Positions 4,060 to 60,076 of a stretch of 60,474 nt of DNA are shown here, piece after piece. The notes beneath the pieces are model-generated. The model was not told the origin of the DNA. It ran no database searches and saw only the letters and a program-made list of their open reading frames with translations. Position 1 is the stretch's first letter, and each line of letters opens with the position of its first letter. Where the stretch lies: the IMG/VR virus record IMGVR_UViG_3300045988_152007, positions 1 through 60,474 of that record, one strand, 5' to 3'. The DNA is from a virus. The position numbers and the translations under genes are program-made.

Positions 4060-4088
4060 ATTATATAATATTTTTTTTAAATTTTCAA
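4060..4088 (-). promoter_or_regulatory. sigma70-type promoter TTGAAA-N17-TATAAT (minus strand)
   Basis: -35 at 4083-4088 and -10 at 4060-4065 read on the minus strand; member of a conserved ~45-nt motif family. Confidence 0.6.
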
Positions 4089-4149
4089 ATTTTATTTTAA
4101 ATGGTAGGCCAGGTTGGACTTGAACCAACAACCGCATTAAGCACCTGAT

Positions 4150-4575
4150 TTATGGTGTTTGAAACGAGAATCGAACTCGAAATTTATAAGTCTAAAAGCC
4201 TTGATTATTGCTTGTTGGAGCTGTTCGTAAAGTAATCTATTTTGTATTTCCTGATTTTAAAATTTCTTTTAATGGAATTACATACATATTACCTTGAACA
4301 TCTATACAAAATAATAAATCAAGCTCAGAATGATTTAAAACATTATCATAAACAGTTCCTTTAGTACCACCGCAAGATCTTAACATTATAACATTATCCT
4401 AACTTCCAGTACATTTACATTGAACTGTCTAAAATTTACCATTTCGTTCTATAATTAAATCATACCACTGAGTATCATTTAAAGGAGTTGAGACTGTATA
4501 GCCTTTGTCAGTGAAATAGGCAATAGCCATAGCTAATCCAAAACGTCCTTTATCTTTGTTACTTTTTGACTACAA
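4150..4575 (-). CDS. PD-(D/E)XK-family putative homing endonuclease (I-Ssp6803I-like), TTG start, 3 in-frame TAG
   Basis: Paralog of ORFs 5108..5551 and 33991..34464 (shared motifs GKFxxIQCK and DxDxF); reading TAG as Q restores the homologous C-terminus. Confidence 0.55.
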
Positions 4576-4593
4576 AATGAACCTCCTTCAAAC
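4153..4593 (-). mobile_element. 441-nt intervening sequence in tRNA-Tyr, almost entirely occupied by a PD-(D/E)XK endonuclease ORF
   Basis: Flanked by complementary tRNA halves; the ORF stop codon TAA supplies anticodon-loop nucleotides of exon 2. Confidence 0.5.
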
Positions 4594-4633
4594 CAGTCAG
4601 GGGTGATACCAATTACACTGTACTGACCTATAT

Positions 4634-4708
4634 TGGCACTGGTGGCTGGATTTGAACCAACGAATACAGGAGTCAAAGTCCTGTGCCTTACCGCTTGGCG
4701 ACACCAGT
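4634..4708 (-). tRNA. tRNA-Gln(TTG)
   Basis: Acceptor ACTGGTG/CACCAGT, D-arm GCCAAGCGGTAAGGC as in E. coli tRNA-Gln, loop CTTTGAC, G73, CCA. Confidence 0.8.
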
Positions 4709-4749
4709 AAATTATAAGTAATTAATAATTTCTTATTGATTACTTATAT

Positions 4750-4778
4750 ATTATATAATATTTTTTTTTAAAATTCAA
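4750..4778 (-). promoter_or_regulatory. sigma70-type promoter TTGAAT-N17-TATAAT (minus strand)
   Basis: Motif family member; lies directly upstream of tRNA-Gln. Confidence 0.6.
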
Positions 4779-5096
4779 ATTTACAAGACACATTAAATAA
4801 ATTAACTATTATCCTACCCTTTGGATGAATTATCTTAACAGAGATAATATTGGACTTGAACCAATAACACATAGATTTTATCTAATATTTGCTGCGTGTG
4901 TCTTTACTGTTAGTTATTTAACCCCGACAACCTACTAACAAAAGGGATGGTTCAGGGGAGGTTATCTGTGTCATCTAGACCTCATTTTTTCATTCCAATA
5001 CAAATCTACTTAGGGAGATCAATCCTTTTCAATTATGTATCTTTAACAGAACCCTGATGGTCCGAGTGGCGAGACTTGAACTCACGGCCTCTTGAT

Positions 5097-5575
5097 CCAG
5101 GAAAATCTTAGATTGTCTTTAAGACCTCCTCAATTTTGTAATCATTAGCGATATGAATACCCTGTTTTTGACCAGATGAAGGATATTCATACCGCCATCT
5201 AAAAGTTGCACCAGTAGCTTCTTCAATGGAAACTAAATATCCTTGGCCTTCAAACCAAGTATAAAAATAATCAATATCATCTTTTGAATACTTATGACGA
5301 GTAGTAGATTTTGTATTAGTGGTAATACAACTTGTAGCAATTGCAAAAGCTACATTAGGTTCTTTTGTATCAGTAACCCAAGAAGATGTTTTACATTGAA
5401 TACGGATAAATTTACCCATCCCCATATCAGCTACTACATCATATTTAGAACTTTCATCAACAGATTTTAAACATCTATATCCAAGATTAGTTAAATCAAG
5501 AATACATCTTAACTCTGTTACAGTTCCTTTCTGTTGAGTAATATCTAACATATTTTTTAGACAAAAATCTCTTTT
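5097..5575 (-). mobile_element. 479-nt intervening sequence in tRNA-Pro carrying a PD-(D/E)XK endonuclease ORF
   Basis: Flanking halves complete the cloverleaf; the ORF fills 444 of 479 nt. Confidence 0.5.
5108..5551 (-). CDS. PD-(D/E)XK-family putative homing endonuclease (I-Ssp6803I-like)
   Basis: ORF track 147 aa; paralog of the 4150..4575 and 33991..34428 ORFs. Confidence 0.7.
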   Translation of the reverse strand: MLDITQQKGTVTELRCILDLTNLGYRCLKSVDESSKYDVVADMGMGKFIRIQCKTSSWVTDTKEPNVAFAIATSCITTNTKSTTRHKYSKDDIDYFYTWFEGQGYLVSIEEATGATFRWRYEYPSSGQKQGIHIANDYKIEEVLKTI

Positions 5576-5618
5576 CCCAAATCAAGCGTTCTACCAAACT
5601 GAACTACACCCGGATATA

Positions 5619-5643: not shown

Positions 5644-6009
5644 TTACATTTCCTTAGCGAGTCTTTCAACTACGCTATCATACATTTCCTTACCTCTTGC
5701 ACTATCATTGAAATACACAGTCATATCATCATAATACTTCTGTGCCTTCTCAAGTGCCTTAGCAGCTTCATCAAGCTTCTTAGTAGCACGCTTCAGACGC
5801 TGAGAACTGACCTTCGCCTGGCAACGTGCTGCGGCAAGCTGCTTACCCTTTTCAGTATCAAATGTATCCTTCGGATCACACTTGGCTACACCACGCACAG
5901 TCCTACCAGCATAAGTAGAAACTGCAACAACCTTATACGGCGTACCATCTGCCTTAGTGGGAATAAAATACTTGTACTTATCCAGAGAATATTCCATAAC
6001 TTTTAACAC
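5644..6009 (-). CDS. hypothetical protein (121 aa), GC-richer than neighbours
   Basis: ORF track; promoter motif directly upstream. Confidence 0.6.
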   Translation of the reverse strand: MLKVMEYSLDKYKYFIPTKADGTPYKVVAVSTYAGRTVRGVAKCDPKDTFDTEKGKQLAAARCQAKVSSQRLKRATKKLDEAAKALEKAQKYYDDMTVYFNDSARGKEMYDSVVERLAKEM

Positions 6010-6047: not shown

Positions 6048-6076
6048 ATTATATACTATTTTTTTAATTTTTTCAA
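6048..6076 (-). promoter_or_regulatory. sigma70-type promoter TTGAAA-N17-TATAAT (minus strand)
   Basis: Motif family member. Confidence 0.6.
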
Positions 6077-6839: not shown

Positions 6840-6918
6840 ATCTAAATGACTCCTTTAATAAATAATTGTGAAATTAGTTAAAACACTATCGCCACGAGAA
6901 GGCTTTCACATAATAGCG

Positions 6919-6991
6919 AGCCGGCAGACGGATTCGAACCCCCGACCTATTGATTACAAATCAATTGCACTACCAACTGTGCTATGCCGGC
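6919..6991 (-). tRNA. tRNA-Thr(TGT)
   Basis: Acceptor GCCGGCA/TGCCGGC, D-arm GCACAGTTGGTAGTGC, loop TTTGTAA, T-loop TTCGAAT; no CCA encoded. Confidence 0.7.
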
Positions 6992-7031: not shown

Positions 7032-7060
7032 ATTATATAAAATTTTTTTTAAATTTTCAA
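7032..7060 (-). promoter_or_regulatory. sigma70-type promoter TTGAAA-N17-TATAAT (minus strand)
   Basis: Motif family member. Confidence 0.6.
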
Positions 7061-7932
7061 ATTATACAACATAAATAATGTGCTAATTCTAATTGATATT
7101 CTTGCTTAAAGAAAAAAGGAACTATTGAAAAAATTATAGTGAATACATCATTTCGACCGCTTAATTTAAAGCTGTTATAAAATAATGGTAAATATTTTTC
7201 ACATATTTCATTATAAGTAATTTGATCATTCTTATAATGAAAATTCTTTAAAGGATCATCACTTTTTAATGTTTTACATTTTAAAATATCTTTTGAAGTT
7301 ACTTCTTCATATAAAGTTATTTTAGCAAATCCATTATAATGTTTATATAAATATGGACAAATAATCGGGCAAGGGTCATTGCATAAAAGTTCAAATCTAT
7401 TTCTTACTTCTATTGGAATTGATTCTAAAAACTTAAAATCTTTTATTTGTCTTCGAGGTAAAACAATTTTATCATATTTATTTAAAAGAGACAAATAATC
7501 TGTATTTTTATTTGAAGCTATTATACTTCTTTTAATTTTAAATTTAGGATATTTATTTCTTATATATTCTTCTAAAATAGAGGAAGAAACTAAAATTGAA
7601 TTATTTTCATTTTCACATAAGGAAACGATTTTATTACAATATCTATCATACAAGTCTTCTTTTGTTAATAATGGATTTGTTAAGGTTAAAGCAATTTCTA
7701 TATTATTTCCATAATAAAAATCAATAATTTCTTTTATTTTTTCTAATGAAGGTTGATAGCCTTGATTGACAGTTCCTCCATTCCAAATCATATTTGGGAA
7801 TGTATCGAATATACTCTCTATAGCTACATTAAAATTGAAACATTCTGGAGCTGTCTATTGTAATTCTAAAAGAGTTTTATATATATTAAATCCAGTATAA
7901 AATCCTGGACAATTTAAATTTATTTTTTTCAT
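7057..7932 (-). CDS. hypothetical protein, paralog family A (NIWNGG / FYxG motif), one in-frame TAG
   Basis: ORF 7057..7791 extends upstream through a TAG to ATG ~7932 (MKKINLNCPGFYTGF...). Confidence 0.55.
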
Positions 7933-8269
7933 ATTTAAATTATATAATATTTTTTACTTTTTATCAAATATAAAATTTTGAATAATTTGTATTCTCCATT
8001 TTTTGAATTAACTAATTTTGATATTTTGTGTTAGTAGGAGCATTTAAATAAAAATTTTTTATTTCTGAAATTTTATTTAAAAGTTCATTTCTTTTTACTA
8101 TAAAATCAAAATTACTGTAATTATTAAAATTATTTTTTATATCTAAAATATATGGTTTATACATTCCTAGCTATAAACTTTGTTTATAACTTTTTGTTTT
8201 ATAATATTCAATTATTATTATTAGATCAATAAAAGATTTATAAATTAATTTATAATAATTTTTTAATTT

Positions 8270-17532: not shown

Positions 17533-17572
17533 TATACCTCCTTCTTACTTTTTCTTTCTTATATAAATAAAA

Positions 17573-17607
17573 AATAGGACATAATAATTTAATTATTATG
17601 TCCTATT
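17573..17607 (-). terminator. hairpin AATAGGACATAATAATT...AATTATTATGTCCTATT followed by a T-run on the minus strand
   Basis: 17-bp stem; sits downstream of the tail-fibre gene and between the promoter 17667..17695 and the next gene start. Confidence 0.5.
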
Positions 17608-17666
17608 CAAGAAAGGGGGTGAGTTAAATGCTGTAAATAAAAAATTTATTTCTTATTTACATTTAT

Positions 17667-17695
17667 ATTATATAAAATAATTTTTTAAAAATCAA
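17667..17695 (-). promoter_or_regulatory. sigma70-type promoter TTGATT-N17-TATAAT (minus strand)
   Basis: Motif family member. Confidence 0.45.
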
Positions 17696-33700: not shown

Positions 33701-33705
33701 ATTTA

Positions 33706-37370: not shown

Positions 37371-37399
37371 ATTATATAATATTTTTTATTAAAAATCAA
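37371..37399 (-). promoter_or_regulatory. sigma70-type promoter TTGATT-N17-TATAAT (minus strand)
   Basis: Motif family member. Confidence 0.55.
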
Positions 37400-37575: not shown

Positions 37576-37604
37576 ATTATATATTAATTTTTATTAAATA
37601 TCAA
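37576..37604 (-). promoter_or_regulatory. sigma70-type promoter TTGATA-N17-TATAAT (minus strand)
   Basis: Motif family member. Confidence 0.5.
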
Positions 37605-40512: not shown

Positions 40513-40620
40513 ATTTTTTATTCCTTTCTTATATAAGAAATTTAATTATTTAATTAATATAATATACCCTATATAAATAATTATAACATAAAAATAAGAG
40601 AAAGTCAATTTGACTTTCTC

Positions 40621-42251: not shown

Positions 42252-42331
42252 TAATTTATCAATATTTAAAAGGTTAATATCCAGCCCCTATGAATAGGCA
42301 ATAACCTTCTTTACTTGTTCTTTAATTTCAT

Positions 42332-43359: not shown

Positions 43360-43388
43360 ATTATATAATAATTTTATTAAATAATCAA
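43360..43388 (-). promoter_or_regulatory. sigma70-type promoter TTGATT-N17-TATAAT (minus strand)
   Basis: Motif family member. Confidence 0.5.
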
Positions 43389-44212: not shown

Positions 44213-44352
44213 TTTTATCTACTCCTTTTTTATATTATTTTATCATATTATTAATATTTAGTCAAAAAAATTCTTAAACCACTTTTTAATTTGGATGTTC
44301 GGTATAGACGCTTGACCTTGGCCGGAGCAGCATCCTAAAAGGGCAAAACAAA

Positions 44353-44372
44353 AGGGTCGGTTTCCCGACCCT
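44353..44372 (-). terminator. rho-independent terminator GGGTCGGGAAACCGACCC plus T-run
   Basis: GC-rich hairpin then TTTTGTTTTG on the minus strand, right after gene 44380..44775. Confidence 0.6.
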
Positions 44373-44379
44373 TCATTTA

Positions 44380-44775
44380 TTAAGCCTTTGCATAGCACAT
44401 GGCATGACGTGCCTTCTCGCCCTCGCCGCCAGGAATCTTCATTTCCTGCTTCTTTACAAGACCATCGCGGACAAGACCTGCAAGACGATGACGAACCTTA
44501 CCCAGAGTAATATCTTCATCACCAATAAAATCATGAATTACATCAGCAGTACGGAACTGCTCGTCAAGTGCAGCAAATACCTTCTCGCGTGCAATATCAG
44601 GTTCAGCCTTCTTAGCTTCACGCTTCTCGCGATCCTTGGCATTACGCTGATCAATACGGTCAATTTCTGTCTGACAGAAATCAACCAGAGTCTGCGCATC
44701 AACTTCGACCTCTTCACCGCACAGCTTGCCAATCAGAGCATCATACAGCTCACGCTTCGTAAACTTCTTTTCCAT
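44380..44775 (-). CDS. hypothetical protein (131 aa), GC-richer
   Basis: ORF track. Confidence 0.6.
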   Translation of the reverse strand: MEKKFTKRELYDALIGKLCGEEVEVDAQTLVDFCQTEIDRIDQRNAKDREKREAKKAEPDIAREKVFAALDEQFRTADVIHDFIGDEDITLGKVRHRLAGLVRDGLVKKQEMKIPGGEGEKARHAMCYAKA

Positions 44776-44817: not shown

Positions 44818-44846
44818 ATTATATTATTTTATTTTAAAAATTTCAA
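44818..44846 (-). promoter_or_regulatory. sigma70-type promoter TTGAAA-N17-TATAAT (minus strand)
   Basis: Motif family member. Confidence 0.6.
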
Positions 44847-46490
44847 TTAAATCGCGATTGACCTATTGTAACTATAAAAACGCTCAGGATAACGACGAAT
44901 AGCATAAGTATAATCAGTAATTATAGTAGAATAAGGATCATTAGAAATTATCTTTTTAGCCTCTACATTTAAATCATCTTCTTCAATTAAAAGAGCCACC
45001 ATACCATAATAAGGACCGCCATCCAATCGAATTGTTTCAGCTCTAATATCAGTATCTCCAAGATACTTTAAATATTCTTTATTAGCAAGACATTCACTAC
45101 AAATATAATGTTCATCATAATCAATATTAATAGTTTGATTTTCAATATGTCCAACAAATACAGTAGTGAAATCTTCATCAAAATGAGCATCCTCACAGCA
45201 TAAGCATCTATGCAAATCATGATAACAATCTTCGCAAACCAATTCACCATCTACTTCAATTGCATCATTTGCATTAACTCGTTCGCCACAGCAATAACAA
45301 TAAGTGGGTGGATCACAGTCTTCACAAACCACCATTTCAGTATCATCAGACCAATAAGCATCCTCGCCGCAGCACATACAAGTCATTAAACCAGAATAAT
45401 TAATTGTAAATGTACGATATTTATTGTTTGGTGAATTAATTGAAAAAATTCCATAATTCTCTGTATTACCAAAATCATTATACATTTCATTTGTTGCAAA
45501 ATCCAACAGAAAATGATTATTCTTATCTTCTTTATCTTGCCAAGCTCCAATATAAGAGCAACTTTCCAAACTCTCTTGTGGCTTTTTTCTGTTATAACGC
45601 CATTCAGTTTTTTCTTCAACCAAATCAACAAGCCAATTTACAAGAGCTTTATCAAATGCAATATTATAATAAGGATAAGATTTTACAGAACAAATAGCAT
45701 TCGGATGGACAATAATTAATTCTCTCCAGCTTTTAGAAGTCCATTCAATAGAAGTGTTTGCTGGATAATAAGGTTTAGTAGTAATATATGCTATAACAAC
45801 TAATGGACTATTCATCATCTCAATAGTACCAGCACGATAACTTCCTGGTCCTTGAGTCCAGTTCATACAACTTTCCCATCCATTTGCATTATCGCTCATA
45901 GTCATATAATCCAAAGGATGAATAGATAGAGTAAATTTGATTTTAGATTTGCGTACTTCGGTAATACGTGAAATATGATTGCGGAAAATTTCAAAATCAG
46001 GTAAATCAAATTCTTTAGCCATTTTTTGAAGAACTTTCATTACCTTGGCTCCTTCTGGAACTTTAACTGCCTTACCATCTTTATTATGATAAATAAATCC
46101 TTTAGCAACTCTATTAGTAAAAAGTTGATAAGCTTGAATTAAATTATATATTGCATGTTTTGTTGCATAACTATCGTCAAAATAAATATTATTAAGCTCA
46201 AATAACTTACGAAGATTCTTAATAAAATTAATACCAGGATTAAAACTATAGAGATATTCACTAACTTCTCTTATTTTTTTATTATCTCCATCTTCAACCT
46301 GGATTTCCTTCTCCAGCATTAACTTTTCACCAAAAATATCAAACAGAGTTTGCTTACTCTTATTCCATTCTCGAAGGATATAATCAAGAGGGGCTTTAAG
46401 TTTAACGGGGGAATTAATGCCACCCCATTTTTCAATATATTCAGTAATATATTTCTTATCTTGGGCCGTTAATGCTTCATAAGGTGTCAT
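44847..46490 (-). CDS. paralog family B protein (547 aa)
   Basis: ORF track; SIHPLDYMTMSDNANGWESCMNW motif plus C-terminal CxxC repeats. Confidence 0.7.
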   Translation of the reverse strand: MTPYEALTAQDKKYITEYIEKWGGINSPVKLKAPLDYILREWNKSKQTLFDIFGEKLMLEKEIQVEDGDNKKIREVSEYLYSFNPGINFIKNLRKLFELNNIYFDDSYATKHAIYNLIQAYQLFTNRVAKGFIYHNKDGKAVKVPEGAKVMKVLQKMAKEFDLPDFEIFRNHISRITEVRKSKIKFTLSIHPLDYMTMSDNANGWESCMNWTQGPGSYRAGTIEMMNSPLVVIAYITTKPYYPANTSIEWTSKSWRELIIVHPNAICSVKSYPYYNIAFDKALVNWLVDLVEEKTEWRYNRKKPQESLESCSYIGAWQDKEDKNNHFLLDFATNEMYNDFGNTENYGIFSINSPNNKYRTFTINYSGLMTCMCCGEDAYWSDDTEMVVCEDCDPPTYCYCCGERVNANDAIEVDGELVCEDCYHDLHRCLCCEDAHFDEDFTTVFVGHIENQTINIDYDEHYICSECLANKEYLKYLGDTDIRAETIRLDGGPYYGMVALLIEEDDLNVEAKKIISNDPYSTIITDYTYAIRRYPERFYSYNRSIAI

Positions 46491-46550
46491 GATTATTTAC
46501 TCCCTTTATTTTTTCTATAAATATTTTATAATATTTTTTTATAAAAATAA

Positions 46551-46586
46551 AAAAGGGATAAAGAATCAAATCTTTATCCCTTTTTT
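46551..46586 (-). terminator. hairpin AAAAGGGATAAAGA...TCTTTATCCCTTTTTT
   Basis: Stem plus T-run downstream of gene 46595..47095. Confidence 0.55.
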
Positions 46587-46594
46587 ATCTATGT

Positions 46595-47709: not shown

Positions 47710-47802
47710 ATTAATTCTCCTTCAATATAAAATAAATAACTAGTAAATAATACTATATTTCATATGAAAAGTCAAATTTAATAGCTAAAAAGAATTGACC
47801 AC

Positions 47803-50762: not shown

Positions 50763-50841
50763 ATCTCTCCCATCCTTTCTATATATATTATATCAAATTT
50801 TTTATAAATTTTCGAGTATTCAATTTTGGCAAGAATTTAAA

Positions 50842-52506
50842 CTAAACATAATCATCAGGATAAGTCGCCTTTAGCCGCATCTTGGCATCAGCAATTCTTT
50901 CAAGGGACAGAAATGGCTCCCATACCTTTTTATCTGCCTTGTCAACATCAATATACTGAAAATCGCCCCACAAGTCTGGCTCCTTCGGTGCATCACCAAA
51001 ATCATAATCTTCATAACAATCATCACAGACATCAATGGGATTTCCAACATCACGACGATGCTTACCATTAGGAGTTTTTACTTCAAACATATAGGGAAGA
51101 GCCTGCTTCTTGAAATCATAATCAAGCCATTTAGTTTCTCCGCAACAGCTACAAGTCTGAGTGCGGCCATCTGCACACCAGCTACAATAAGTTGCACCGT
51201 CCCCTTCACAGAACCAAGCATCTTCACTATCAATCCAAGAGCCACAATCATCACACTGGACTTTGCCTTCACAGGTTGCACATACGACTTTATCACATTC
51301 TACAAATGCATCTACATTTCCACTCGGATCAGCTTCATAGCCTTTACCGCAGCACATACATTCAGCTACACCAGAATAGTAAACTTCTACTTCTTTTACT
51401 TCTGGATTGATATAAGCATAATGATTATCATAATAATCATTATACATAGCTCCAGTTCTCATGCGGATATAAACCTGACCAAAATCAGTATCATTGCTCT
51501 GATTCTGCCAAACCTCATACATCTTATCGTCGTAATGCCAGCCCATATTCTGTTCAGCTAACTGCTTAATTTTATTCAGCACATAATCACGCAGATAAAT
51601 ATTGTTATAAGGATACTGCTTAATTTCAGTGATAATATCCTTATTAACAATATAAAGACACCGCCAACGCTTATTACTCCAAGTTCTTTTGTCACGGTCA
51701 ATAGGACAATAAGGATGCTCGGATTCAACATATGCTTCAAGGATGACAGGAGAATTCATCATTTCAACAGTGCCAAGACGATAATCACCGCCCTGATACC
51801 AGTTCATACAACTCTCCCAATCACAAGCATTATCACTCATAGTAAGATAATCAAGCGGATGAATAGAGAGTACAATATCAGCATTAATCATACGATCATT
51901 CAAAACACGCGAATGAAGAATACGAAACTGCTCAAATGCTTCTTTATCCAGCTCAAACCAATCGACAATTTTAGCCATCATTCGCATCAGCTTCATATCA
52001 CTCTTCAACTCAAGCGGCTTCGAAGTATCTGCATGCGGACCACGGCGAATAACAACAGATTTGCGACCCCAATCAAACATATATACATTTTTATTGGCTA
52101 CGAGAGATTCACTATCAAGGCAATGGTCAATCATGCTACAACAATTAACACGTTCATCTTTATCAAGAGTGGTATCCATCCAAGAATAATAAATATTAGT
52201 AATTTGCTCGTAAGAATCAATGAATTTTTTGACGTTTGCTAATTCAGGATTATTATAAATTTCTTCATACATTTCACCGAATTTATCCATCAAATCATCT
52301 CCAGATGCCTGATAGGAAATATGGTCTTCGACCATCAAATTATTACCAAGCAACTCATACAGGTCAGGCTTTTCAGCAGCCCAAAACCGCAGAAGATGAT
52401 TAATTTCATCTACAGTGCAGTAATTATCAGAATGAAGGTACTCTTTAATATAATCATGCAGCAGATTCTTTTCTTCTTCTGGAATGAGTGTCCTCAAATC
52501 TGTCAT
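50842..52506 (-). CDS. paralog family B protein (554 aa)
   Basis: ORF track; SIHPLDYLTMSDNACDWESCMNW motif plus C-terminal CxxC repeats. Confidence 0.7.
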   Translation of the reverse strand: MTDLRTLIPEEEKNLLHDYIKEYLHSDNYCTVDEINHLLRFWAAEKPDLYELLGNNLMVEDHISYQASGDDLMDKFGEMYEEIYNNPELANVKKFIDSYEQITNIYYSWMDTTLDKDERVNCCSMIDHCLDSESLVANKNVYMFDWGRKSVVIRRGPHADTSKPLELKSDMKLMRMMAKIVDWFELDKEAFEQFRILHSRVLNDRMINADIVLSIHPLDYLTMSDNACDWESCMNWYQGGDYRLGTVEMMNSPVILEAYVESEHPYCPIDRDKRTWSNKRWRCLYIVNKDIITEIKQYPYNNIYLRDYVLNKIKQLAEQNMGWHYDDKMYEVWQNQSNDTDFGQVYIRMRTGAMYNDYYDNHYAYINPEVKEVEVYYSGVAECMCCGKGYEADPSGNVDAFVECDKVVCATCEGKVQCDDCGSWIDSEDAWFCEGDGATYCSWCADGRTQTCSCCGETKWLDYDFKKQALPYMFEVKTPNGKHRRDVGNPIDVCDDCYEDYDFGDAPKEPDLWGDFQYIDVDKADKKVWEPFLSLERIADAKMRLKATYPDDYV

Positions 52507-52571
52507 TTTAATTCACCTTTTCCCTTTAATTTATATATATATTTTATAATATTTTTTTATAAAAATAAAAT

Positions 52572-52593
52572 AAGGAGCCTTTAACAAGGCTCC
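52572..52593 (-). terminator. hairpin AGGAGCC-TTTAACAA-GGCTCCT
   Basis: Seen directly; downstream end of gene ..53504. Confidence 0.45.
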
Positions 52594-53504
52594 TATAAAA
52601 GTAAATCATCTATTGTTAAATCTTTATATTTCGTATATGGTATTCTAATTAATGGAATATTATTATCTCTACACCATTGAGTTTTTATATTGTCTCTATA
52701 TTGCATATCATCTATTGACTCTCCCCAATTTTTTGTAGGAGCATCTATAGAATGCTATATTCCATCATATTCAATTAAATATTTATTATCAATAAAAAAA
52801 TCAAATCTTAATTTTTTATTAGTTTTAGGATTAATACAATCATCAAAACTCTTTTCTCTTACATAAGGGATATGATATTCTTCTAATATCTATTGTATTT
52901 TTAATTCTCCATGAGATATTTTTAAACATCCACAAGATTGAGTGTCACCGCTACTTAAATGACTTCCTCTCACTGAAACTATATTACCACAATCACATTG
53001 ACAAATCCAATATTTAATTTTAGGAATTGATTTTTCTGTATCTAATTTTATAACAGTTAATAATCCAAACCTTTTACCTACTAAATTAACAGTAGATGTT
53101 TCAGAAGTTCTTTCTTTCTAATAGCATCCGCAAGATTTAGTATGACCTGTATTTAAATGATTTGTATTTACTATCACTTTATTACCACATTTACATTGAC
53201 ATTCCCATAAGGCACTATTAGGCATACGTCGTAAAACAGTTAAATATCCATAAACTTTTCCAGTTAAATCTTCAGATTGATTAGCCTCTCTTGTTTTTTC
53301 TCTTTGTAAACAACCACAAGACTATGTAGGTTTAGCTCTATTTAAAGAAGCACTTGATATATCAAGTTCATTACCGCAATCGCATTTACAATGCCATAGA
53401 ATACGATTATAACTATTTTTTTTACCCGTATCATATTCTACTAACAATCTACCAAATCTTTTTCCAGTTAAATCTTTCTTTGCTGGCATATAAAAATCCT
53501 CCAT
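52581..53504 (-). CDS. free-standing endonuclease-like protein: three W.C.C.CGN...SCGC zinc-binding modules plus a C-terminal Vsr/DUF559-like EYDG.QH domain; in-frame TAGs; 3' end uncertain
   Basis: ORF 53322..53504 ends in TAG and the frame continues; repeats were hand-translated. Confidence 0.45.
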
Positions 53505-53556: not shown

Positions 53557-55173
53557 TTAATTAGTCTTACCCGGAAAATTATTCATCATAAGCATCGGCA
53601 GAAGCCAATCTTTATCACCATCAGCCTTATCCGACATAAGATAGAGCATCATAGGATTAAAACCGGTCATACCATTTGCACCATTCATAAGCAGCATCAT
53701 AGGAAGAATATCTTTCATGGACTTATTATTGTCATCAAGAAGAGTAAACATCCACATATTGCCCAGAGGGTTGTCTTTAGAAGGAGGAGCCATCATATTA
53801 TCAAAAAGGCTTACAATTTTAGTAATAAAACTAAAATTACCAAAAGGAGACTTTGTAGGCATAATAGTCTTCTTTTCACCCATTGCAATATCAATTGCAA
53901 TTACATCACCCTGCTCGGAGAAACCAAAGACAAAACACGGACGTCTGTTGAAAATAATCACATCACCAGCTTCAATGGCGTCAATGCCAACAGGCATCTT
54001 GAAGAACATATTATCAGCCTTAAAGTTGAAAATATCAACATCCATAATCTCGCCATTCTTCTTATCATAAGCCTGATATGTGCCATTAACATTCTTAACC
54101 GCCAGACCATACGGCGACATACGAACAGCATCATTATCCTTAATCGGACCAAAATCAAAATTAAACATCTTCATATTATTTCCTTTACCTTTCACATCAT
54201 CATTGTTTGTTTCAAGTTTATTAATTCTTTCTTCCATTGTATCAATACGGCTAGTTAAACTATCACAGATTGAAACAGTAGCTGTAGTATATGGATTATA
54301 AGTAATACCAGAATCACCATTAACTTCAATAGTTTTCCCTATAACACTTTCGCCAGTAATAGAACTAGCTGTAGAAGCGGTTGGACGATATCCCCAATCT
54401 ATACTAACAGACGCAGTAGAAGCTGTTTCATCTTTAATATCCAATTTAGCTGGATCAATAGGGCTAACATTAATAGTTGCCGTATCAGAAAATGTGGTAT
54501 TTTTTACTTTATCTACATTTTCATATACTTTATTAAGCCATTCAGTATTTTCGTTAATTTTATTATAACAATTATTAAGAATCTCAGTAGTCTTATTAAA
54601 TTCGCAATTGAGCTTCTTTATATCTTTTTTTACATCATTAAAAATCGCTTGACCAGTTGTACCCTCCACCGCGGGATTAAGTGCCCAATTAATAGCACGC
54701 CAACCGATGCCGTCCTCTGAACTATAAGCTCCTAAATTAGTTAAGCCAAATAGCCTATAATCATCTACCTTTTCATCAGCTTCTACCCAATCAAAATAAT
54801 CATAGAACAACATATCGGCCAAATATGTACCAAATGAATAATCATCTTCAGAAGTATTATACTTCTTATCAGTACCTACCATTCTAAAATTATCTGAATC
54901 TTTTAAATACTTAAATTCCTGAATATGGACTATAGTAGGAGCAAGACAGGTATTATTAATCTCAAACCATACTACCTTATAGTCTCCATCCATTAAATGG
55001 AGAACTTTCCAATCAGTATAAAGCAGTTTATTATAAGCTCCGGCTTTAACATTTTTGTTAAAATCATCTAGTAACTTTTCCCAGGCTTCTTTATTATAAA
55101 CTTTGGCATCATAGACTGGACTATAAGTTCTTTTCTTGTCCATCGGCCATATGTCTTTTAAATAAGCTTTCAT
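53557..55173 (-). CDS. hypothetical protein (538 aa) with a Met-rich C-terminus
   Basis: ORF track. Confidence 0.65.
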   Translation of the reverse strand: MKAYLKDIWPMDKKRTYSPVYDAKVYNKEAWEKLLDDFNKNVKAGAYNKLLYTDWKVLHLMDGDYKVVWFEINNTCLAPTIVHIQEFKYLKDSDNFRMVGTDKKYNTSEDDYSFGTYLADMLFYDYFDWVEADEKVDDYRLFGLTNLGAYSSEDGIGWRAINWALNPAVEGTTGQAIFNDVKKDIKKLNCEFNKTTEILNNCYNKINENTEWLNKVYENVDKVKNTTFSDTATINVSPIDPAKLDIKDETASTASVSIDWGYRPTASTASSITGESVIGKTIEVNGDSGITYNPYTTATVSICDSLTSRIDTMEERINKLETNNDDVKGKGNNMKMFNFDFGPIKDNDAVRMSPYGLAVKNVNGTYQAYDKKNGEIMDVDIFNFKADNMFFKMPVGIDAIEAGDVIIFNRRPCFVFGFSEQGDVIAIDIAMGEKKTIMPTKSPFGNFSFITKIVSLFDNMMAPPSKDNPLGNMWMFTLLDDNNKSMKDILPMMLLMNGANGMTGFNPMMLYLMSDKADGDKDWLLPMLMMNNFPGKTN

Positions 55174-55394
55174 CCTCGACTATACATCTCCCATACCATA
55201 TCTTCTTCGGCAGGTGTGATATCCTCAATCCCGCACTCTTCACACATAATATTAAAATTTTCCTCAACATACCATCGAGGATTTTCTTGCATCTTACGTA
55301 CCAGAGTATTAATACATCCAGTACGAGTGTTTACCATTCCAGTACCCTCTGCTTCATTCATGAACAGAAAATAACTATCATCAAAACCAAACAT
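55170..55394 (-). CDS. hypothetical protein (74 aa)
   Basis: ORF track. Confidence 0.5.
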   Translation of the reverse strand: MFGFDDSYFLFMNEAEGTGMVNTRTGCINTLVRKMQENPRWYVEENFNIMCEECGIEDITPAEEDMVWEMYSRG

Positions 55395-55422: not shown

Positions 55423-55451
55423 ATTATATAATATTTTTTTATTTTTTTCAA
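55423..55451 (-). promoter_or_regulatory. sigma70-type promoter TTGAAA-N17-TATAAT (minus strand)
   Basis: Motif family member. Confidence 0.6.
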
Positions 55452-57177: not shown

Positions 57178-57874
57178 TACACCTCGTCAAATAAGTAATT
57201 TTCTGCTTCTGGTAAGTTCCAAGAGACTTAATAGTTCCCTTAATAGTAAGTTCCTTACCAATTTCCCAATTCTTGGCGGCTGTACTCCAGCAGTACAGAT
57301 TCTCATTGGCATCAATAAACGTCATAATATGATTAACACCATAGTAATTTTCTGCTTCAATGTTTTTAATTACTTTTACATCACGTTCAATCTTATCGCC
57401 AACTTCACCCTGATAACGACTATTGCCTTCATCATAAATAAGATTTTCAACTACCTTATTAATAACAGCATTATCTTTCAGAGTGCCGTCGTCATTACCT
57501 ACGAGTTCCCAAGGCAGCTGCACGGGCGTAATACCTTCCGGCACATCGGCAGGAACTTCTTCGGTAGAAACAACATACCACTTGAACGTAGTGTGGAAAC
57601 GGGCATTAGAATGTTCAAACCATTCAAGATTTTCATAAGTATTACCTTTAAACAGGGTAATATATCCATTATCAAAACCAAGAATATGCTTACGATTACC
57701 AGGTTTAATAATTTTTACAGGAGGATAATAGCGGTCATACTCTGACTGGGTGTAGCTCTTGACCTTCTTGACCTTGCCATCCTTGGTCCGCACATCACAA
57801 TAACGCTTGCCATTTTCAATATAAGTATCACGGACAATTTCCAAATCCTGATAAGATTTAGCAACAAGAGCCAT
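57164..57874 (-). CDS. hypothetical protein (236 aa)
   Basis: ORF track. Confidence 0.6.
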   Translation of the reverse strand: MALVAKSYQDLEIVRDTYIENGKRYCDVRTKDGKVKKVKSYTQSEYDRYYPPVKIIKPGNRKHILGFDNGYITLFKGNTYENLEWFEHSNARFHTTFKWYVVSTEEVPADVPEGITPVQLPWELVGNDDGTLKDNAVINKVVENLIYDEGNSRYQGEVGDKIERDVKVIKNIEAENYYGVNHIMTFIDANENLYCWSTAAKNWEIGKELTIKGTIKSLGTYQKQKITYLTRCSEVG

Positions 57875-58068
57875 TATCTGTCACCCTCCTCAAAAAGCTG
57901 CTTATAAAGAATATCAAGAGCCATGTCAATTTCTTCCGCTTCAGCATTGTCAATATACTCATAATTACTTACACAGAGATCAACGACCTTATTATAAGCA
58001 TTGACAACTTCTTCGTTTCTAATCTTGTCCATAGTATCGTCTCCTTTAAAATTCTTTATATCTCTCAT
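57874..58068 (-). CDS. small acidic hypothetical protein (64 aa)
   Basis: ORF track. Confidence 0.45.
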   Translation of the reverse strand: MRDIKNFKGDDTMDKIRNEEVVNAYNKVVDLCVSNYEYIDNAEAEEIDMALDILYKQLFEEGDR

Positions 58069-58111
58069 TTCTTTATATATATATTTTATAATATTTTTTT
58101 ATAAAAATAAA

Positions 58112-58138
58112 AGAGGAGTCTCTTATCAAGACTCCTCT
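58112..58138 (-). terminator. hairpin AGAGGAGTC-TCTTATCAAG-ACTCCTCT
   Basis: Seen directly; overlaps the 3' end of gene 58126..58536. Confidence 0.45.
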
Positions 58139-58536
58139 GTATAATCAATCAATTCAATTTCTGACCAAAATGGCTGCTCATACCAACTTGTCCAAGGATT
58201 ACTCCTATAGAACTGATGAATACGCACTTTTTCATTGAATTCTTTTACTTGAGTATAATACAATTCATTTACACCAACTCTTGAAGTTTCAAGGAAACTA
58301 TCATGGTGTTCTATCTGATAAACAATAACATCTCGTTCGGCTTCTACATTAGCACGGTCAATAGATGCAGTTGCTCTGTGGCATATAAAAGCAATTGTAC
58401 TAAATAATACTACAAGAGCAAGTATAAAGCCAATAGTAAATGGAAGAGCAGCCCAATCACTAAAATTATCACTCAAACATTTTGCAATGATAAAACAAAT
58501 TACGCCGATAACAATAGCCAACAAATACAATAACAT
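58126..58536 (-). CDS. membrane protein (136 aa)
   Basis: ORF track; two hydrophobic helices. Confidence 0.55.
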   Translation of the reverse strand: MLLYLLAIVIGVICFIIAKCLSDNFSDWAALPFTIGFILALVVLFSTIAFICHRATASIDRANVEAERDVIVYQIEHHDSFLETSRVGVNELYYTQVKEFNEKVRIHQFYRSNPWTSWYEQPFWSEIELIDYTEES

Positions 58537-58538
58537 AA

Positions 58539-58841
58539 TTATTCCTCCATTGTTCTGTAACCTTCAACATCTACATCAGCCATATCACTAATGTCGAAAT
58601 CATCATCATCTTCTGAAACATTATAGTCTGCCTTGGCGGCATCAATAAAATCTCCAATAGATGCACCATACCAATCCCAATTGTCAACGCCACCACAGTC
58701 TAATGCTTGAAGTCGCAAACTATCATAGAGCAAATCTTTTAGTTCATCTTTTGGAACAAGGCAATAAATCATATTAATACTTGGTTCCTTTCTTATAGTT
58801 ATAGAAATACAATCCACCAAGGACGACAATAGCAATAACAA
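58539..58841 (-). CDS. acidic hypothetical protein (100 aa)
   Basis: ORF track. Confidence 0.5.
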   Translation of the reverse strand: MLLLLSSLVDCISITIRKEPSINMIYCLVPKDELKDLLYDSLRLQALDCGGVDNWDWYGASIGDFIDAAKADYNVSEDDDDFDISDMADVDVEGYRTMEE

Positions 58842-58861
58842 GAATAATTACGGGGTCCATA

Positions 58862-60019
58862 TTAGTTCTCCTTTTTAAAATCAAAAATTGTTTTTAATTC
58901 TTCTACTTTATCAAGCTGTTCCCAAGGGCTATTACATTCAATACGACCAAAATGACCGAAGCAAGCATAGGGTAAATAGCGAGTATGTTTTAAATCAAAT
59001 TTATGAATAATACTACGCGGTGCAAAATCAAATGTCTGATTAACTGCTTCAAGAATTTCAGCGATAGGTTTCTTTTCTGTACCAAAACAATTAATATTAA
59101 TAGATACAGGTTCTGTCTGCCCAATAATATAAGCAACTTGAATCATACATTTATTACAAACACCAGAAGCTACAAGATTTTTAGCTACATAACGTGCCAT
59201 ATAAGCACCAGACCTATCTACTTTACAGGGCGACTTCCCTGAAAAACATCCCCCACCATGTGGAGCATAACCACCATATGTATCTACGACGATTTTACGT
59301 CCGGTTAATCCAATGTCAGCCGCAGGTCCACCAATTACGAATCTGCCTGTTGGGTTAATATAAAATTTACAATCTTTCTTAATGGCATAACCTTGAAGGG
59401 CAATATTACAAATGTTTGTAATATCGGGTGTTATTTCCTTAATACTATATTTGTCTTTGTGTTGGGCCGATACGACAATTGTATCTACCCCTTCAAAGTT
59501 GCCATCATCATCGTATTGGACAGTTATCTGACATTTGCCGTCAGGTAATGCCCAAGGTAGCAAATCATTTTTATACTTACTAAACATAATGACCGAGATA
59601 TTGTTAGCAAGTTGCTGGGCAATAGGCATATAATTTTCTGTTTCGTTAGTTGCATAACCAAACATCATGCCTTGATCTCCAGCACCATCCCTATCGACAC
59701 CCGCAGCGATGTCAGGGGATTGATTTACTACATTAATAATATATGAACAAGTGTCGCAGTTAAATCCTGCTTCATCATTGTCATAACCAATAAATCTTAA
59801 AGTCTCTCTTGCAATTTCCTGATAAGGAATAGATTGTTCTGTTTTAGCTGTAATCTCTCCCATGATGTGGAAAAGACCTGGACTAATAGTACATTCACAA
59901 GCTACTCGTGCATCAGGGTCAAGCTGGAGGACATAATCCAGAATAGCATCACTTACCTAATCACAAACCTTATCAGGGTGACCGGCAAAAACGCTCTCAC
60001 TGGTAAATAAATAACTCAT
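58862..60019 (-). CDS. metK: S-adenosylmethionine synthetase (MetK), 385 aa, with an in-frame TAG at 59957-59959 at the conserved Gln
   Basis: ORF 58862..59863 carries GAGDQGMMFGYA, GGPAADIGLTGRKIVVDTYGG and GGGCFSGK.P.KVDRSGAY; the upstream frame through the TAG gives [28 protein letters not shown], the MetK N-terminus; GGAGG precedes ATG 60017-60019. Confidence 0.8.
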
Positions 60020-60047
60020 ATAATATTTCCTCCTTTATTATATAAAT

Positions 60048-60076
60048 ATTATATAATATTATTTTTTATTTTTCAA
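60048..60076 (-). promoter_or_regulatory. sigma70-type promoter TTGAAA-N17-TATAAT (minus strand) upstream of metK
   Basis: Motif family member. Confidence 0.6.

What the first reader, a model, noticed from the sequence alone, without database searches (positions are those of the whole stretch)
4060..60076. Family of about 14 near-identical consensus sigma70 promoters, all on the minus strand
A ~45-nt motif recurs: + strand TTGTATATATATTATATAATATTTTTTTTAAATTTTCAAAT. Read on the minus strand it gives TTGAAA (-35), exactly 17 nt, then TATAAT (-10). Each copy sits immediately upstream of a minus-strand gene or tRNA. A second AT-rich variant (TATATATATTTTATAATATTTTTTTATAAAAATAAAA) follows terminator hairpins at about 46505, 52530 and 58070. 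The precision of the spacing and sequence suggests strong, possibly temporally co-regulated, host-RNAP early or middle promoters.
Basis: seen in the sequence. Interest (0 to 1): 0.55.

Follow-up and report, generated by a model that had tools for sequence, protein, structure and literature searches.

The report
Phage promoter family, sigma-70 type
The repeated AT-rich motif is a real family of 20 near-identical bacterial-type promoters in a large gut phage that reads TAG as glutamine; they sit in front of its stop-codon-free genes, its tRNAs (including the TAG suppressor) and a large ROOL RNA, which makes them a new example of a well-known kind of element.

Summary
TTGAAA-N17-TATAAT occurs 10 times, all on the minus strand, against 0.2 expected. 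A matrix built only from distantly related phage contigs finds exactly 20 sites in the window. All are on the minus strand and score above 30 bits; nothing scores between 15 and 30, and the plus-strand maximum is 3.4.

The conserved unit runs from about -37 to +15: aAtTTGAAAAtttaAAAAAAATATTATATAATATATATA(G/GT)AAgATAAAGAAAG. The spacer is always 17 bp. Three members lack the -35 (TTTTATTTTTAT..TAAAAT) and directly abut intrinsic terminators.

Each site lies 15-52 nt upstream of a gene, a tRNA, the ROOL RNA or a tRNA-like RNA. Exceptions are one leaderless gene, the suppressor tRNA behind a 127-nt structured leader, and one weak site that faces a terminator.

The window belongs to a roughly 188-kb TAG-to-Gln recoded gut phage. 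The promoters cluster in the TAG-poor module and the RNA arrays and are absent from the TAG-rich tail-fibre and radical-SAM modules.

The most likely mechanism is recognition by the host primary-sigma RNA polymerase of a Firmicutes-type host, in an early or constitutive class. This is inferred, not measured. It is a new member of a known kind, comparable to the T4, T5 and SPO1 early promoter families. Interest is modest.

The parts
2667..2695 (-). Family promoter (-35 TTGATT, 17 bp, -10 TATAAT). It is followed by a structured leader and then the amber-suppressor tRNA-CTA (2540..2466).
   Evidence: Independent matrix 36.6 bits; tRNA; leader hairpin. The orthologous site in L035 has TTGAAA.
4060..4088 (-). 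Family promoter (TTGAAA/TATAAT), 37 nt upstream of ROOL RNA (4023..3430).
   Evidence: 42.7 bits; ROOL at 323 bits. A ROOL in the distant contig L034 also has a family promoter about 40 nt upstream.
4750..4778 (-). Family promoter (TTGAAT/TATAAT), 42 nt upstream of tRNA-Gln (4708..4634).
   Evidence: 36.7 bits; tRNA.
6048..6076 (-). Family promoter upstream of the 121-aa gene 6009..5644. The likely start is ATG 5996, preceded by AAGGTG.
   Evidence: 49.6 bits.
7032..7060 (-). Family promoter, 41 nt upstream of tRNA-Thr (6991..6918).
   Evidence: 52.8 bits.
7939..7967 (-). Family promoter (TTGATA/TATAAT) with only 6 nt between the -10 and the ATG of gene 7932..7057. This predicts a leaderless mRNA.
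   Evidence: 34.8 bits.
17667..17695 (-). Family promoter (TTGATT/TATAAT) directly after the stop of the 909-aa tail-fibre gene. A terminator (17608..17572) lies between it and the next gene (17529).
   Evidence: 35.1 bits. Its target is unclear.
33901..33929 (-). Family promoter, 31 nt upstream of a 55-aa gene (33870..33703). That gene is followed by tRNA-Glu, tRNA-Asp and further tRNAs.
   Evidence: 50.2 bits.
36717..36745 (-). Family promoter (TTGAAA/TAAAAT), 41 nt upstream of tRNA-Phe (36676..36600).
   Evidence: 42.2 bits.
37191..37219 (-). Family promoter, 32 nt upstream of a 145-nt interrupted tRNA (37159..37015).
   Evidence: 35.4 bits.
37371..37399 (-). Family promoter (TTGATT) upstream of a leader hairpin (AAAGGCTTTTA-CAGCAA) and a tRNA-like RNA ending GGAGCCA. 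No tool calls this RNA.
   Evidence: 50.2 bits.
37576..37604 (-). Family promoter (TTGATA) upstream of a leader hairpin and a tRNA-like or permuted-tRNA-like RNA.
   Evidence: 44.7 bits.
43360..43388 (-). Family promoter (TTGATT), 30 nt upstream of the M28-peptidase-like gene 43330..42332.
   Evidence: 41.7 bits.
44818..44846 (-). Family promoter, 43 nt upstream of gene 44775..44380. That unit ends at terminator 44374..44351.
   Evidence: 47.5 bits.
46523..46551 (-). Variant without a -35 (TTTATT..TAAAAT), 33 nt upstream of the 547-aa gene 46490..44847.
   Evidence: 31.9 bits.
46547..46588 (-). Intrinsic terminator whose T-run overlaps the -35 position of the variant promoter.
   Evidence: The scan lists this hairpin on the plus strand. 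Reading it as a minus-strand terminator rests on the minus-strand sequence (gggataaagatttgattctttatccc followed by ttttttattttt).
50787..50815 (-). Family promoter (TCGAAA, TGaTATAAT), 25 nt upstream of gene 50762 and the operon that runs down to 47803.
   Evidence: 41.5 bits.
52541..52569 (-). Variant without a -35, 35 nt upstream of the 554-aa paralogue 52506..50842.
   Evidence: 35.2 bits.
52573..52594 (-). Intrinsic terminator abutting the variant promoter.
55423..55451 (-). Family promoter, 29 nt upstream of gene 55394..55170.
   Evidence: 46.9 bits.
58083..58111 (-). Variant without a -35, 15 nt upstream of gene 58068..57874. The leader is very short and has no Shine-Dalgarno sequence.
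   Evidence: 33.2 bits.
58112..58138 (-). Intrinsic terminator abutting the variant promoter.
60048..60076 (-). Family promoter, 29 nt upstream of the S-adenosylmethionine synthetase gene 60019..58862.
   Evidence: 41.1 bits.

Best explanation
The motif is a family of 20 promoter cassettes of about 52 bp belonging to a large (roughly 188 kb) gut phage that reads TAG as glutamine.

Each cassette has a -35 element (TTGAAA, TTGATT or TTGATA), an invariant 17-bp spacer with an A7 tract, a -10 TATAAT, an all-A/T discriminator (ATATATA) and a purine-rich initial transcribed region (AAgATAAAGAAAG).

The most likely reader is the host RNA polymerase carrying its primary sigma factor (sigma-A/sigma-70) in a low-GC Firmicutes-type host. 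Transcription should start about 7-8 nt after the -10.

The cassettes divide the minus strand into many short units bounded by intrinsic terminators. These units express three kinds of target:
- the TAG-poor accessory genes, which can be translated in the standard code;
- the tRNA arrays, including the amber-suppressor tRNA;
- ROOL RNA and other small structured RNAs.

Where space is tight, the T-run of the upstream terminator replaces the -35. This gives the three '-35-less' variants, which are probably weaker or dependent on a factor.

Shown here: the sequence family, its geometry, its placement, its conservation across related phages and its occurrence in bacterial chromosomes. Inferred: which polymerase reads it, its strength and its timing.
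For: Enrichment and strand:
- 10 exact matches against 0.2 expected, all on the minus strand.
- 20 sites found with a matrix trained on other phages, with a clean score gap and none on the plus strand.

Geometry:
- The spacer is 17 bp in 183 of the TTGANN-Nx-TATAAT matches in the window plus loci, against at most 19 for any other length.

Logo over 107 non-redundant sites:
- Information is zero upstream of -37.
- It is highest at the G of TTGA (2.47 bits).
- It is near-maximal through the spacer A-tract and the -10.
- It continues to +15, beyond the part used to select the sites.

Placement:
- Every site is intergenic and co-oriented with the genes.
- The -10 lies 15-52 nt from a start codon with AAGGAG-type ribosome sites, from a tRNA 5' end or from ROOL, with one leaderless case and three longer or unclear cases.

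Conservation in relatives (33 IMG/VR stretches of 100-240 kb phage contigs):
- They carry over 100 further copies, co-oriented within every locus but one (L018).
- A family promoter precedes ROOL in the distant contig L034.
- A family promoter precedes the suppressor tRNA in L004 and L006.

Use by a host-type polymerase:
- The exact 33-mer occurs upstream of a HAD hydrolase gene, and of a lipid-kinase-like gene followed by murB and whiA, in Clostridia MAG contigs of 44-48% GC.
- Related phage contigs were binned with Clostridium, Mollicutes and Firmicutes MAGs.

Temporal hint:
- TAG makes up 6% of Gln-type codons in the promoter-rich 42-60 kb module.
- It makes up 31-46% in the tail-fibre and radical-SAM modules, which hold only two peripheral members of the family.
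- TAG aligns with the conserved Gln of MetK.
Against: - No transcription start, RNA-seq or polymerase-binding data exist for this uncultured phage.
- Conservation of the spacer A7 tract, the discriminator and positions +3 to +15 is stronger than a sigma-70 holoenzyme is known to need. An additional phage factor, or concerted evolution of the cassettes, may be involved.
- Only about 80 kb of the roughly 188-kb genome was seen, so a phage-encoded sigma factor or polymerase cannot be excluded.
- Three members lack a -35.
- One member (17667) faces a terminator.
- The two bacterial-chromosome matches are few.
- A second, more canonical set of promoters (TTGACT-17-TAtaAT at 40608, 44265 and 47775) exists in the same module. 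The family is therefore not the only promoter type, and its temporal class is uncertain.
Confidence: 0.72

Rival explanations
1. The cassettes are read by the host polymerase only together with a phage-encoded specificity factor. This could be a sigma-70-like phage sigma, or an appropriator or activator that contacts the invariant A-tract spacer or the -35-less T-rich region. They would then define a phage-specific temporal class, analogous in logic to T4 middle promoters.
For: - The spacer A7 and the TATTA block are as conserved as the hexamers across 107 non-redundant sites from many phages.
- The exact 33-mer is almost confined to this phage clade: about 22 IMG/VR contigs, and 5 hits in 185,579 genomes, of which 3 are phage contigs.
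- A sharply conserved -35-less subclass (TTTTATTTTTAT..TAAAAT) recurs five times in about 30 kb.
Against: - The hexamers and spacing already match the primary-sigma consensus, so no extra factor is required.
- Two matches lie in front of cellular genes in Clostridia chromosomes.
- No sigma or transcription-factor domain was found among the window proteins scanned or in the flanking gene tables, although many small ORFs remain unannotated.
Confidence: 0.15
2. They are early promoters of a phage-encoded multisubunit virion RNA polymerase, as in the jumbo phages AR9 and phiKZ. Early promoters in those phages are long, highly conserved AT-rich motifs followed by a fixed start site (AR9: AAATATATATTAT-(6N)-G).
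For: - The phage is large and infects a Firmicutes-type host.
- The motif is long, AT-rich and nearly invariant.
- It is often followed by a conserved G 7-8 nt after the TATAAT block.
- The AR9 consensus comes from PMC5312081.
Against: - The AR9 consensus is not enriched in the window (14 matches against 8.9 +/- 3.0) and does not coincide with the family.
- AR9/phiKZ promoters have no -35. Here TTGA at exactly 17 bp is the most informative element.
- No DFDGD catalytic motif occurs in any frame of the 355 kb of window and related DNA held. This is weak evidence, because the sample is biased.
- No polymerase domain appears in the flanking gene tables.
Confidence: 0.06
3. The repeats are mainly recombination modules: mobile promoter-terminator cassettes like the PeSLs of T4-type phages. 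Their near-identity would be maintained by gene conversion, and they would mediate swapping of the genes they flank. Promoter activity would be real but secondary to this role.
For: - The terminator-plus-promoter composites at 46.5, 52.5 and 58.1 kb resemble PeSL architecture (PMC2839356, PMC4122927).
- 9 of 77 synteny-block ends between the window and its relatives fall within 15 nt of a family element, against 4% of the covered positions (about 3 expected).
- In L035 the same promoter, leader and downstream flank enclose a different suppressor-tRNA body.
Against: - The enrichment of breakpoints is only about 3-fold and comes from non-independent relatives.
- Most rearrangements in the tRNA region are explained by homing-endonuclease insertions.
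- The tRNA swap in L035 is bounded by the leader hairpins rather than by the promoter.
- This idea is compatible with the main explanation rather than an alternative to it.
Confidence: 0.05
4. The matches are chance products of AT-rich DNA.
For: - Generic sigma-70-like patterns are barely above shuffles in this DNA: 124 against 106, and 165 against 146.
- Two exact TTGAAA-N17-TATAAT matches inside genes are probably chance.
Against: - 10 exact matches against 0.2 expected.
- 20 matrix hits above 30 bits when the simulated maximum is 17.
- Absolute strand bias, intergenic placement and conservation in unrelated loci.
Confidence: 0.01

Closest known systems
Early promoter families of virulent phages read by the host primary-sigma holoenzyme (T4 early, T5, SPO1 early promoters)
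   Same: - Many near-identical copies.
- Primary-sigma -35 and -10 elements at optimal spacing.
- Conservation that extends beyond the two hexamers.
- Placement in front of small early genes and tRNA genes.
- All copies co-oriented with the genes they serve.
(The properties of the known families are from my own knowledge.)
   Different: - The -35 is TTGAAA or TTGATT rather than TTGACA or GTTTAC.
- There is no conserved UP-like element upstream of -37.
- Instead, an invariant A7 tract sits inside the spacer, followed by an all-A/T discriminator and a conserved purine-rich start of the transcript.
- The host is a Firmicutes-type gut bacterium, and the phage uses genetic code 15.
PeSL (promoter-early stem-loop) cassettes of T4-type phages (PMC2839356, PMC4122927)
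   Same: - A composite of an intrinsic terminator hairpin and an early-type promoter, repeated many times.
- The cassettes flank small, variable genes.
- Some synteny breakpoints fall at the cassettes.
   Different: - Only the three -35-less variants in the window directly abut a terminator.
- The evidence for recombination at the cassettes is weak (about 3-fold).
- There is no sequence similarity to PeSLs.
AR9/phiKZ virion-RNA-polymerase early promoters (PMC5312081)
   Same: A long, nearly invariant AT-rich motif in a large phage, with a fixed distance to a purine start site.
   Different: - The motif here is bipartite, with a strongly conserved TTGA at 17 bp.
- The AR9 consensus is not enriched.
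- No phage polymerase gene was seen.
Stop-codon-recoded gut phages of 150-210 kb (Jade, Sapphire and Agate clades; bioRxiv 10.1101/2021.08.26.457843)
   Same: - Large gut or rumen phage.
- TAG read as Gln, with a suppressor tRNA.
- Recoded codons concentrated in structural genes and nearly absent from another module.
   Different: That work contains no promoter analysis: the word 'promoter' does not occur in it. Membership of a particular named clade was not tested here.

Membership tests
Primary-sigma (sigma-70/sigma-A) dependent promoter | -35 hexamer resembling TTGACA | tested here: met
   TTGAAA, TTGATT, TTGATA, TTGAAT or TCGAAA in 17 of 20 sites. TTGA carries 1.4-2.5 bits per position. 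This feature is not met in the 3 variant sites.
Primary-sigma (sigma-70/sigma-A) dependent promoter | -10 hexamer TATAAT | tested here: met
   TATAAT in 16 sites and TAAAAT in 4.
Primary-sigma (sigma-70/sigma-A) dependent promoter | Spacer of 17 +/- 1 bp | tested here: met
   Exactly 17 bp in every member; 183 matches at 17 bp against at most 19 at any other length.
Primary-sigma (sigma-70/sigma-A) dependent promoter | Located upstream of, and co-oriented with, transcription units | tested here: met
   All 20 sites are on the coding strand, in intergenic DNA, upstream of genes, tRNAs or ROOL.
Primary-sigma (sigma-70/sigma-A) dependent promoter | Transcription starts 6-9 nt downstream of the -10, dependent on host holoenzyme | not testable with these tools
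   This needs start-site mapping or in vitro transcription. The only indirect support is the same 33-mer in front of cellular genes in two Clostridia contigs.
PeSL-type mobile promoter-terminator cassette | Stem-loop terminator fused to an early promoter | tested here: inconclusive
   True for 3 of the 20 sites, at 46.5, 52.5 and 58.1 kb. Two more occur just upstream of the window. It is not true for the other members.
PeSL-type mobile promoter-terminator cassette | Insertion, deletion or replacement junctions between related genomes map to the cassettes | tested here: inconclusive
   9 of 77 block ends lie near a cassette, against 4% of the covered positions (about 3 expected). The relatives are not independent.
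AR9/phiKZ-type virion-polymerase early promoter | Match to the AT-rich consensus AAATATATATTAT-(6N)-G without a -35 element | tested here: not met
   14 matches with up to 2 mismatches against 8.9 +/- 3.0 expected, and none aligned with the family. The family has a conserved -35.
AR9/phiKZ-type virion-polymerase early promoter | Phage encodes split beta/beta'-like polymerase subunits | tested here: inconclusive
   No DFDGD motif in 355 kb of window and related DNA. No polymerase Pfam family in about 20 kb of flanks. More than half of the genome was not seen.

The most novel reading that the evidence does not exclude
The 52-bp cassette may be more than a generic strong promoter. Its invariant A-tract spacer and its conserved transcript start could be read by a phage factor, or could tune promoter escape. 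All cassettes would then fire as one early burst that loads the cell with phage tRNAs, the amber-suppressor tRNA and ROOL RNA.

On this reading the promoter family is the switch that times the change from the standard code to TAG=Gln, and therefore the onset of late-gene translation. The same cassettes, together with the covarying leader hairpin (AAGRC..CAGCAA..GYCTTG), would also serve as docking sites for swapping tRNA genes.
Probability: 0.15. Interest if true: 0.65.

Novelty: new member of a known kind. Interest (0 to 1): 0.35.

Why it matters
Recoded gut phages are uncultured, and their transcription programmes are unknown. The proposal that recoding delays late-gene expression has so far rested on codon maps alone.

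A sharply defined promoter family gives that idea testable coordinates. The family marks the TAG-poor genes, the tRNA arrays and the suppressor tRNA, and it avoids the TAG-rich structural genes. The coordinates can be tested with metatranscriptomes or with in vitro transcription.

It also shows that ROOL RNA, whose function is unknown, has its own strong-looking promoter in at least two lineages of these phages.

As a promoter family in itself it is ordinary.

Tried and rejected
- A megablast of 12 kb against GenBank phages gave nothing. A tblastn with the clade-specific 547-aa protein found no annotated relative, so no curated genome could be consulted.
- Look-up of the 126-aa end protein failed. 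Two other look-ups extended the view by only about 10 kb on each side.
- MetK-based related loci were either 96-97% or at most about 53% identical. They gave no intermediate relatives for testing positional conservation.
- The site at 9176 found with the self-trained matrix (25 bits) was dropped. The independent matrix does not find it, and it lies inside coding sequence.
- The exact-pattern matches at 32466 and 42042 were rejected as family members.
- AR9-type promoter consensus: not enriched.
- Catalytic DFDGD motif: absent from the held sequence, but that sample is incomplete.
- Breakpoint enrichment at promoters is modest and was not pursued.
- Rfam in permissive mode found no family for the leader hairpin or for the 690-nt ORF-free stretch after ROOL. 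There was only a weak YrlA-like hit.
- Folding of 2705-3395 gave z = -2.07, which is not decisive.
- One literature search failed because a term was too short, and one Rfam call exceeded the size limit.

Full report
**What is there.** The pattern TTGAAA-N17-TATAAT occurs 10 times in the window, always on the minus strand, against 0.20 expected from shuffles.

Aligning the sites shows that conservation is not limited to the two hexamers. The shared sequence is aaAtTTGAAAAtttaAAAAAAATATTATATAATATATATA followed by a purine-rich stretch.

To avoid circularity I built a weight matrix only from other DNA. I used 93 non-redundant TTGANN-N17-TATAAT sites from IMG/VR and MAG loci that do not align to the window. 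Scanned over the window, this matrix gives exactly 20 sites above 30 bits, all on the minus strand. Nothing scores between 15 and 30. The best plus-strand score is 3.4. In 100 Markov-simulated sequences the highest score was 17.

The 20 sites, given as the plus-strand coordinate of the -10's 3' end, are:
- With a -35: 2667, 4060, 4750, 6048, 7032, 7939, 17667, 33901, 36717, 37191, 37371, 37576, 43360, 44818, 50787, 55423 and 60048.
- Without a -35: 46523, 52541 and 58083.

Two of the exact-pattern matches (32466 and 42042) lie inside genes, lack the extended motif and are not found by the matrix.

**Anatomy.** Over 107 non-redundant sites from the window and related loci, the information content behaves as follows:
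- It is about zero upstream of -37.
- It rises at A-36 and peaks at the G of TTGA (2.47 bits).
- It stays close to the maximum possible for A or T through the spacer A-tract (-23 to -17), the TATTA block and the -10.
- It continues through the discriminator ATATATA.
- It is still 0.5-1.35 bits at +3 to +15 (AAgATAAAGAAAG). That region lies outside the part used to pick the sites.

Spacing is rigid. TTGANN-Nx-TATAAT has 183 matches at x = 17 in the window plus loci, and at most 19 at any other length from 12 to 23.

The three variants read cTTTTATTTTTATAAAAAAATATTATAAAATATATATA. They keep the spacer, a TAAAAT -10 and the downstream part. The T-run of an intrinsic terminator occupies the -35 position (hairpins 46588..46547, 52594..52573 and 58138..58112). 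Two further copies of this variant lie in the 8.5 kb just upstream of the window.

**Genomic setting.** All genes run on the minus strand.

The window is phage DNA that uses TAG as a sense codon:
- The MetK gene (60019..58862) has an in-frame TAG that aligns with the invariant Gln of HPDKICDQISDA.
- Allowing TAG turns the fragmented ORFs between 7 and 32 kb into long genes.
- A tRNA with anticodon CTA is present at 2540..2466.

PHROG and Pfam scans give the following picture:
- 17.7-30.2 kb: tail-fibre proteins.
- 7-17 kb: radical-SAM and glycosyltransferase-like proteins, in DNA of about 20% GC.
- 38-60 kb: accessory functions (MetK, kinase-like ATPase, nucleotidyltransferase, phosphoesterase, HslV-like peptidase, radical SAM, homing endonucleases).

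Nearly identical contigs of 188-191 kb exist in gut metagenomes. There is no annotated relative in GenBank phages.

**What the promoters drive.** The table gives the distance from the -10 to the downstream feature for each site.

| Site | Downstream feature | Distance (nt) |
|---|---|---|
| 2667 | suppressor tRNA-CTA, behind a structured leader | 127 |
| 4060 | ROOL RNA (323 bits) | 37 |
| 4750 | tRNA-Gln | 42 |
| 6048 | gene 6009, or ATG 5996 | 39 or 52 |
| 7032 | tRNA-Thr | 41 |
| 7939 | gene 7932 | 7 |
| 17667 | terminator, then gene 17529 | 138 |
| 33901 | gene 33870 | 31 |
| 36717 | tRNA-Phe | 41 |
| 37191 | interrupted tRNA | 32 |
| 37371, 37576 | tRNA-like RNAs that no tool calls | - |
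| 43360 | gene 43330 | 30 |
| 44818 | gene 44775 | 43 |
| 46523 | gene 46490 | 33 |
| 50787 | gene 50762 | 25 |
| 52541 | gene 52506 | 35 |
| 55423 | gene 55394 | 29 |
| 58083 | gene 58068 | 15 |
| 60048 | gene 60019 (MetK) | 29 |

At 7939, TATAAT-ttaaat-ATG places the ATG at the predicted start site, so the mRNA would be leaderless. That N-terminus matches two paralogues. Protein genes mostly carry AAGGAG-type ribosome sites.

Terminators close several units.

**Relation to recoding.** TAG accounts for 6% of Gln-type codons in the 42.3-60.5 kb module, and half of those TAGs are in one HNH endonuclease gene. The figure is 31% in the tail-fibre module and 46% in the radical-SAM island.

Nine of the 20 sites lie in the TAG-poor module and nine in the two RNA arrays. 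The TAG-rich modules have only two peripheral members: 7939 at one edge, and 17667 facing a terminator.

This is the pattern expected if the family is read by the unmodified host machinery before suppression is established. It is an inference from placement, not a measurement.

**Relatives.** The 33-mer TTGAAA-N5-AAAAAAATATTATATAATATAT occurs in 33 stretches from about 22 IMG/VR contigs of up to 240 kb. Most of these share no alignable DNA with the window.

They carry over 100 further copies. Within each locus all copies point the same way, except in L018, which has one on each strand. These loci also contain dense tRNA arrays and amber-suppressor tRNAs.

A family promoter precedes the suppressor tRNA in L004 and L006 as well. 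One also precedes ROOL in the distant contig L034.

**Who reads them.** The hexamers and the exact 17-bp spacing are the signature of a primary sigma factor.

In 185,579 bacterial and archaeal genomes the 33-mer is found five times:
- Three hits are phage contigs binned into Clostridium, Mollicutes and Firmicutes MAGs.
- Two lie in ordinary chromosomal contexts of Clostridia MAGs with 44-48% GC. One is upstream of a HAD-type hydrolase gene. The other is upstream of a lipid-kinase-like gene followed by murB and whiA.

So bacteria of the likely host group carry the same extended sequence at positions where promoters are expected. This favours the host holoenzyme.

The main rival is a phage-encoded polymerase of the AR9/phiKZ type, whose early promoters are also long AT-rich motifs (AAATATATATTAT-(6N)-G; PMC5312081). 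The evidence against it:
- That consensus is not enriched in the window and does not overlap the family.
- Such promoters have no -35.
- I found no DFDGD motif in 355 kb of held DNA.
- No polymerase family appears in the flanking gene tables.

More than half of the genome is unseen, so this rival is weakened but not excluded.

The unusually strong conservation of the spacer and of the early transcribed region leaves room for a phage factor or for concerted evolution of the cassettes.

**Cassette mobility.** Some synteny-block ends between the window and its relatives fall exactly at the upstream edge of a promoter (4095, 7062, 33941, 36747, 37220). Overall, 9 of 77 ends are near a cassette, against 4% of the covered positions (about 3 expected). 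The relatives are not independent.

In L035 the promoter, the leader and the downstream flank of the suppressor slot are conserved, but the tRNA body between them is different. Its anticodon loop is still CTCTAAA.

This resembles the PeSL idea from T4-type phages (PMC2839356, PMC4122927), but it is not established here.

**Comparison and verdict.** Functionally this is an early-type promoter family of a virulent phage, like those of T4, T5 or SPO1. That comparison rests on my own knowledge. It has its own sequence flavour: a TTGAAA -35, an A7 spacer, an all-A/T discriminator, a conserved purine-rich start and no conserved upstream element.

It meets every sequence-level criterion of a primary-sigma promoter. 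The functional criteria could not be tested. The preprint on recoded phages contains no promoter analysis.

I rate it a new member of a known kind, with modest interest. The interest is raised a little by its link to the suppressor tRNA, to ROOL and to the partition between codes.

Noticed in passing
window minus strand, 5' arms at about 37552, 37354, 33362, 4905, 2628 and 2460; also L002-L035: A covarying RNA helix lies in the leaders between family promoters and tRNAs. Its form is 5'-AAGRC-N3-5-CAGCAA ... 45-160 nt ... N3-5'-GYCTTG-3', followed about 10 nt later by a tRNA or by the next promoter. Across 37 instances, 3.0 of 4 variable positions pair, against 1.85 +/- 0.15 when the partners are shuffled. 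G.U pairs occur. No Rfam family matches it.
   Followed up: partly
window 33325..33255 and 37540..37420 (minus strand): Inside some of these hairpins, a tRNA T-arm plus acceptor 3' strand comes before a D-arm-like 5' half, which looks like a permuted tRNA. Rfam in permissive mode gives a weak Y-RNA-like (YrlA) hit of 30 bits, E = 0.0012, and a weak permuted-tmRNA hit.
   Followed up: partly
window 4023..3430 and 1529..1417 (minus strand): ROOL RNA (323 bits) and RAGATH-33 RNA (139 bits) lie in a 7-kb island with few ORFs that is dense in tRNAs. ROOL also occurs in the related loci L002 and L034.
   Followed up: partly
window 4152-4594, 5098-5575, 6183-6918 and 33991-34494: The tRNA-Tyr, tRNA-Pro and tRNA-Val genes are split by insertions of 440-500 nt, in tRNA-Pro about 38 nt into the gene. 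Each insertion is almost entirely a 141-167-aa ORF; the gene tables of near-identical contigs list PDDEXK_5 ORFs of 126-147 aa at the corresponding positions. A GIY-YIG gene lies after tRNA-Thr. The 99%-identical relative L012 lacks the first three insertions and has intact tRNAs. The insertions leave no room for a group I ribozyme core, and Rfam finds no intron, so how or whether they are spliced is unclear.
   Followed up: partly
L035 about 2670-2745 compared with window 2466-2540: At the same slot, with identical flanks, the relative L035 carries a different tRNA-like body. Its T-arm is unusual and ARAGORN does not call it, but it has the same anticodon loop, CTCTAAA (amber suppressor).
   Followed up: partly
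window 46490..44847, 52506..50842 and 42356..40929: Three paralogous proteins of 475-555 aa share the motif SIHPLDYLTMSDN..W.SCM..G.YR.GT.EMMNSP and a Cys-rich C-terminus. None has a Pfam or PHROG match. Two of them sit behind the -35-less promoter variant.
   Followed up: no
window 40608..40580, 44265..44237 and 47775..47747 (minus strand): A second, more canonical promoter type (TTGACT-17-TAtaAT, two of them with TG) lies directly after terminators, without the family's A-tract signature.
   Followed up: no
window 3395..2705 (minus strand): A 690-nt stretch between ROOL and the suppressor-tRNA promoter has no ORF and is relatively GC-rich. It has no Rfam hit, and its folding z-score is only -2.07. 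It could be another structured RNA.
   Followed up: partly
window 8000-16700: An island of 19-24% GC encodes several radical-SAM-like proteins and a glycosyltransferase-like protein, and has the highest TAG use in the window (46% of Gln-type codons).
   Followed up: no
L039-L042, about 10 kb beyond window coordinate 1: The flanking genes of the same phage include an SLH-domain protein, an Eco57I-like enzyme, a DUF2828 protein and a protein with major-vault-protein shoulder domains.
   Followed up: no
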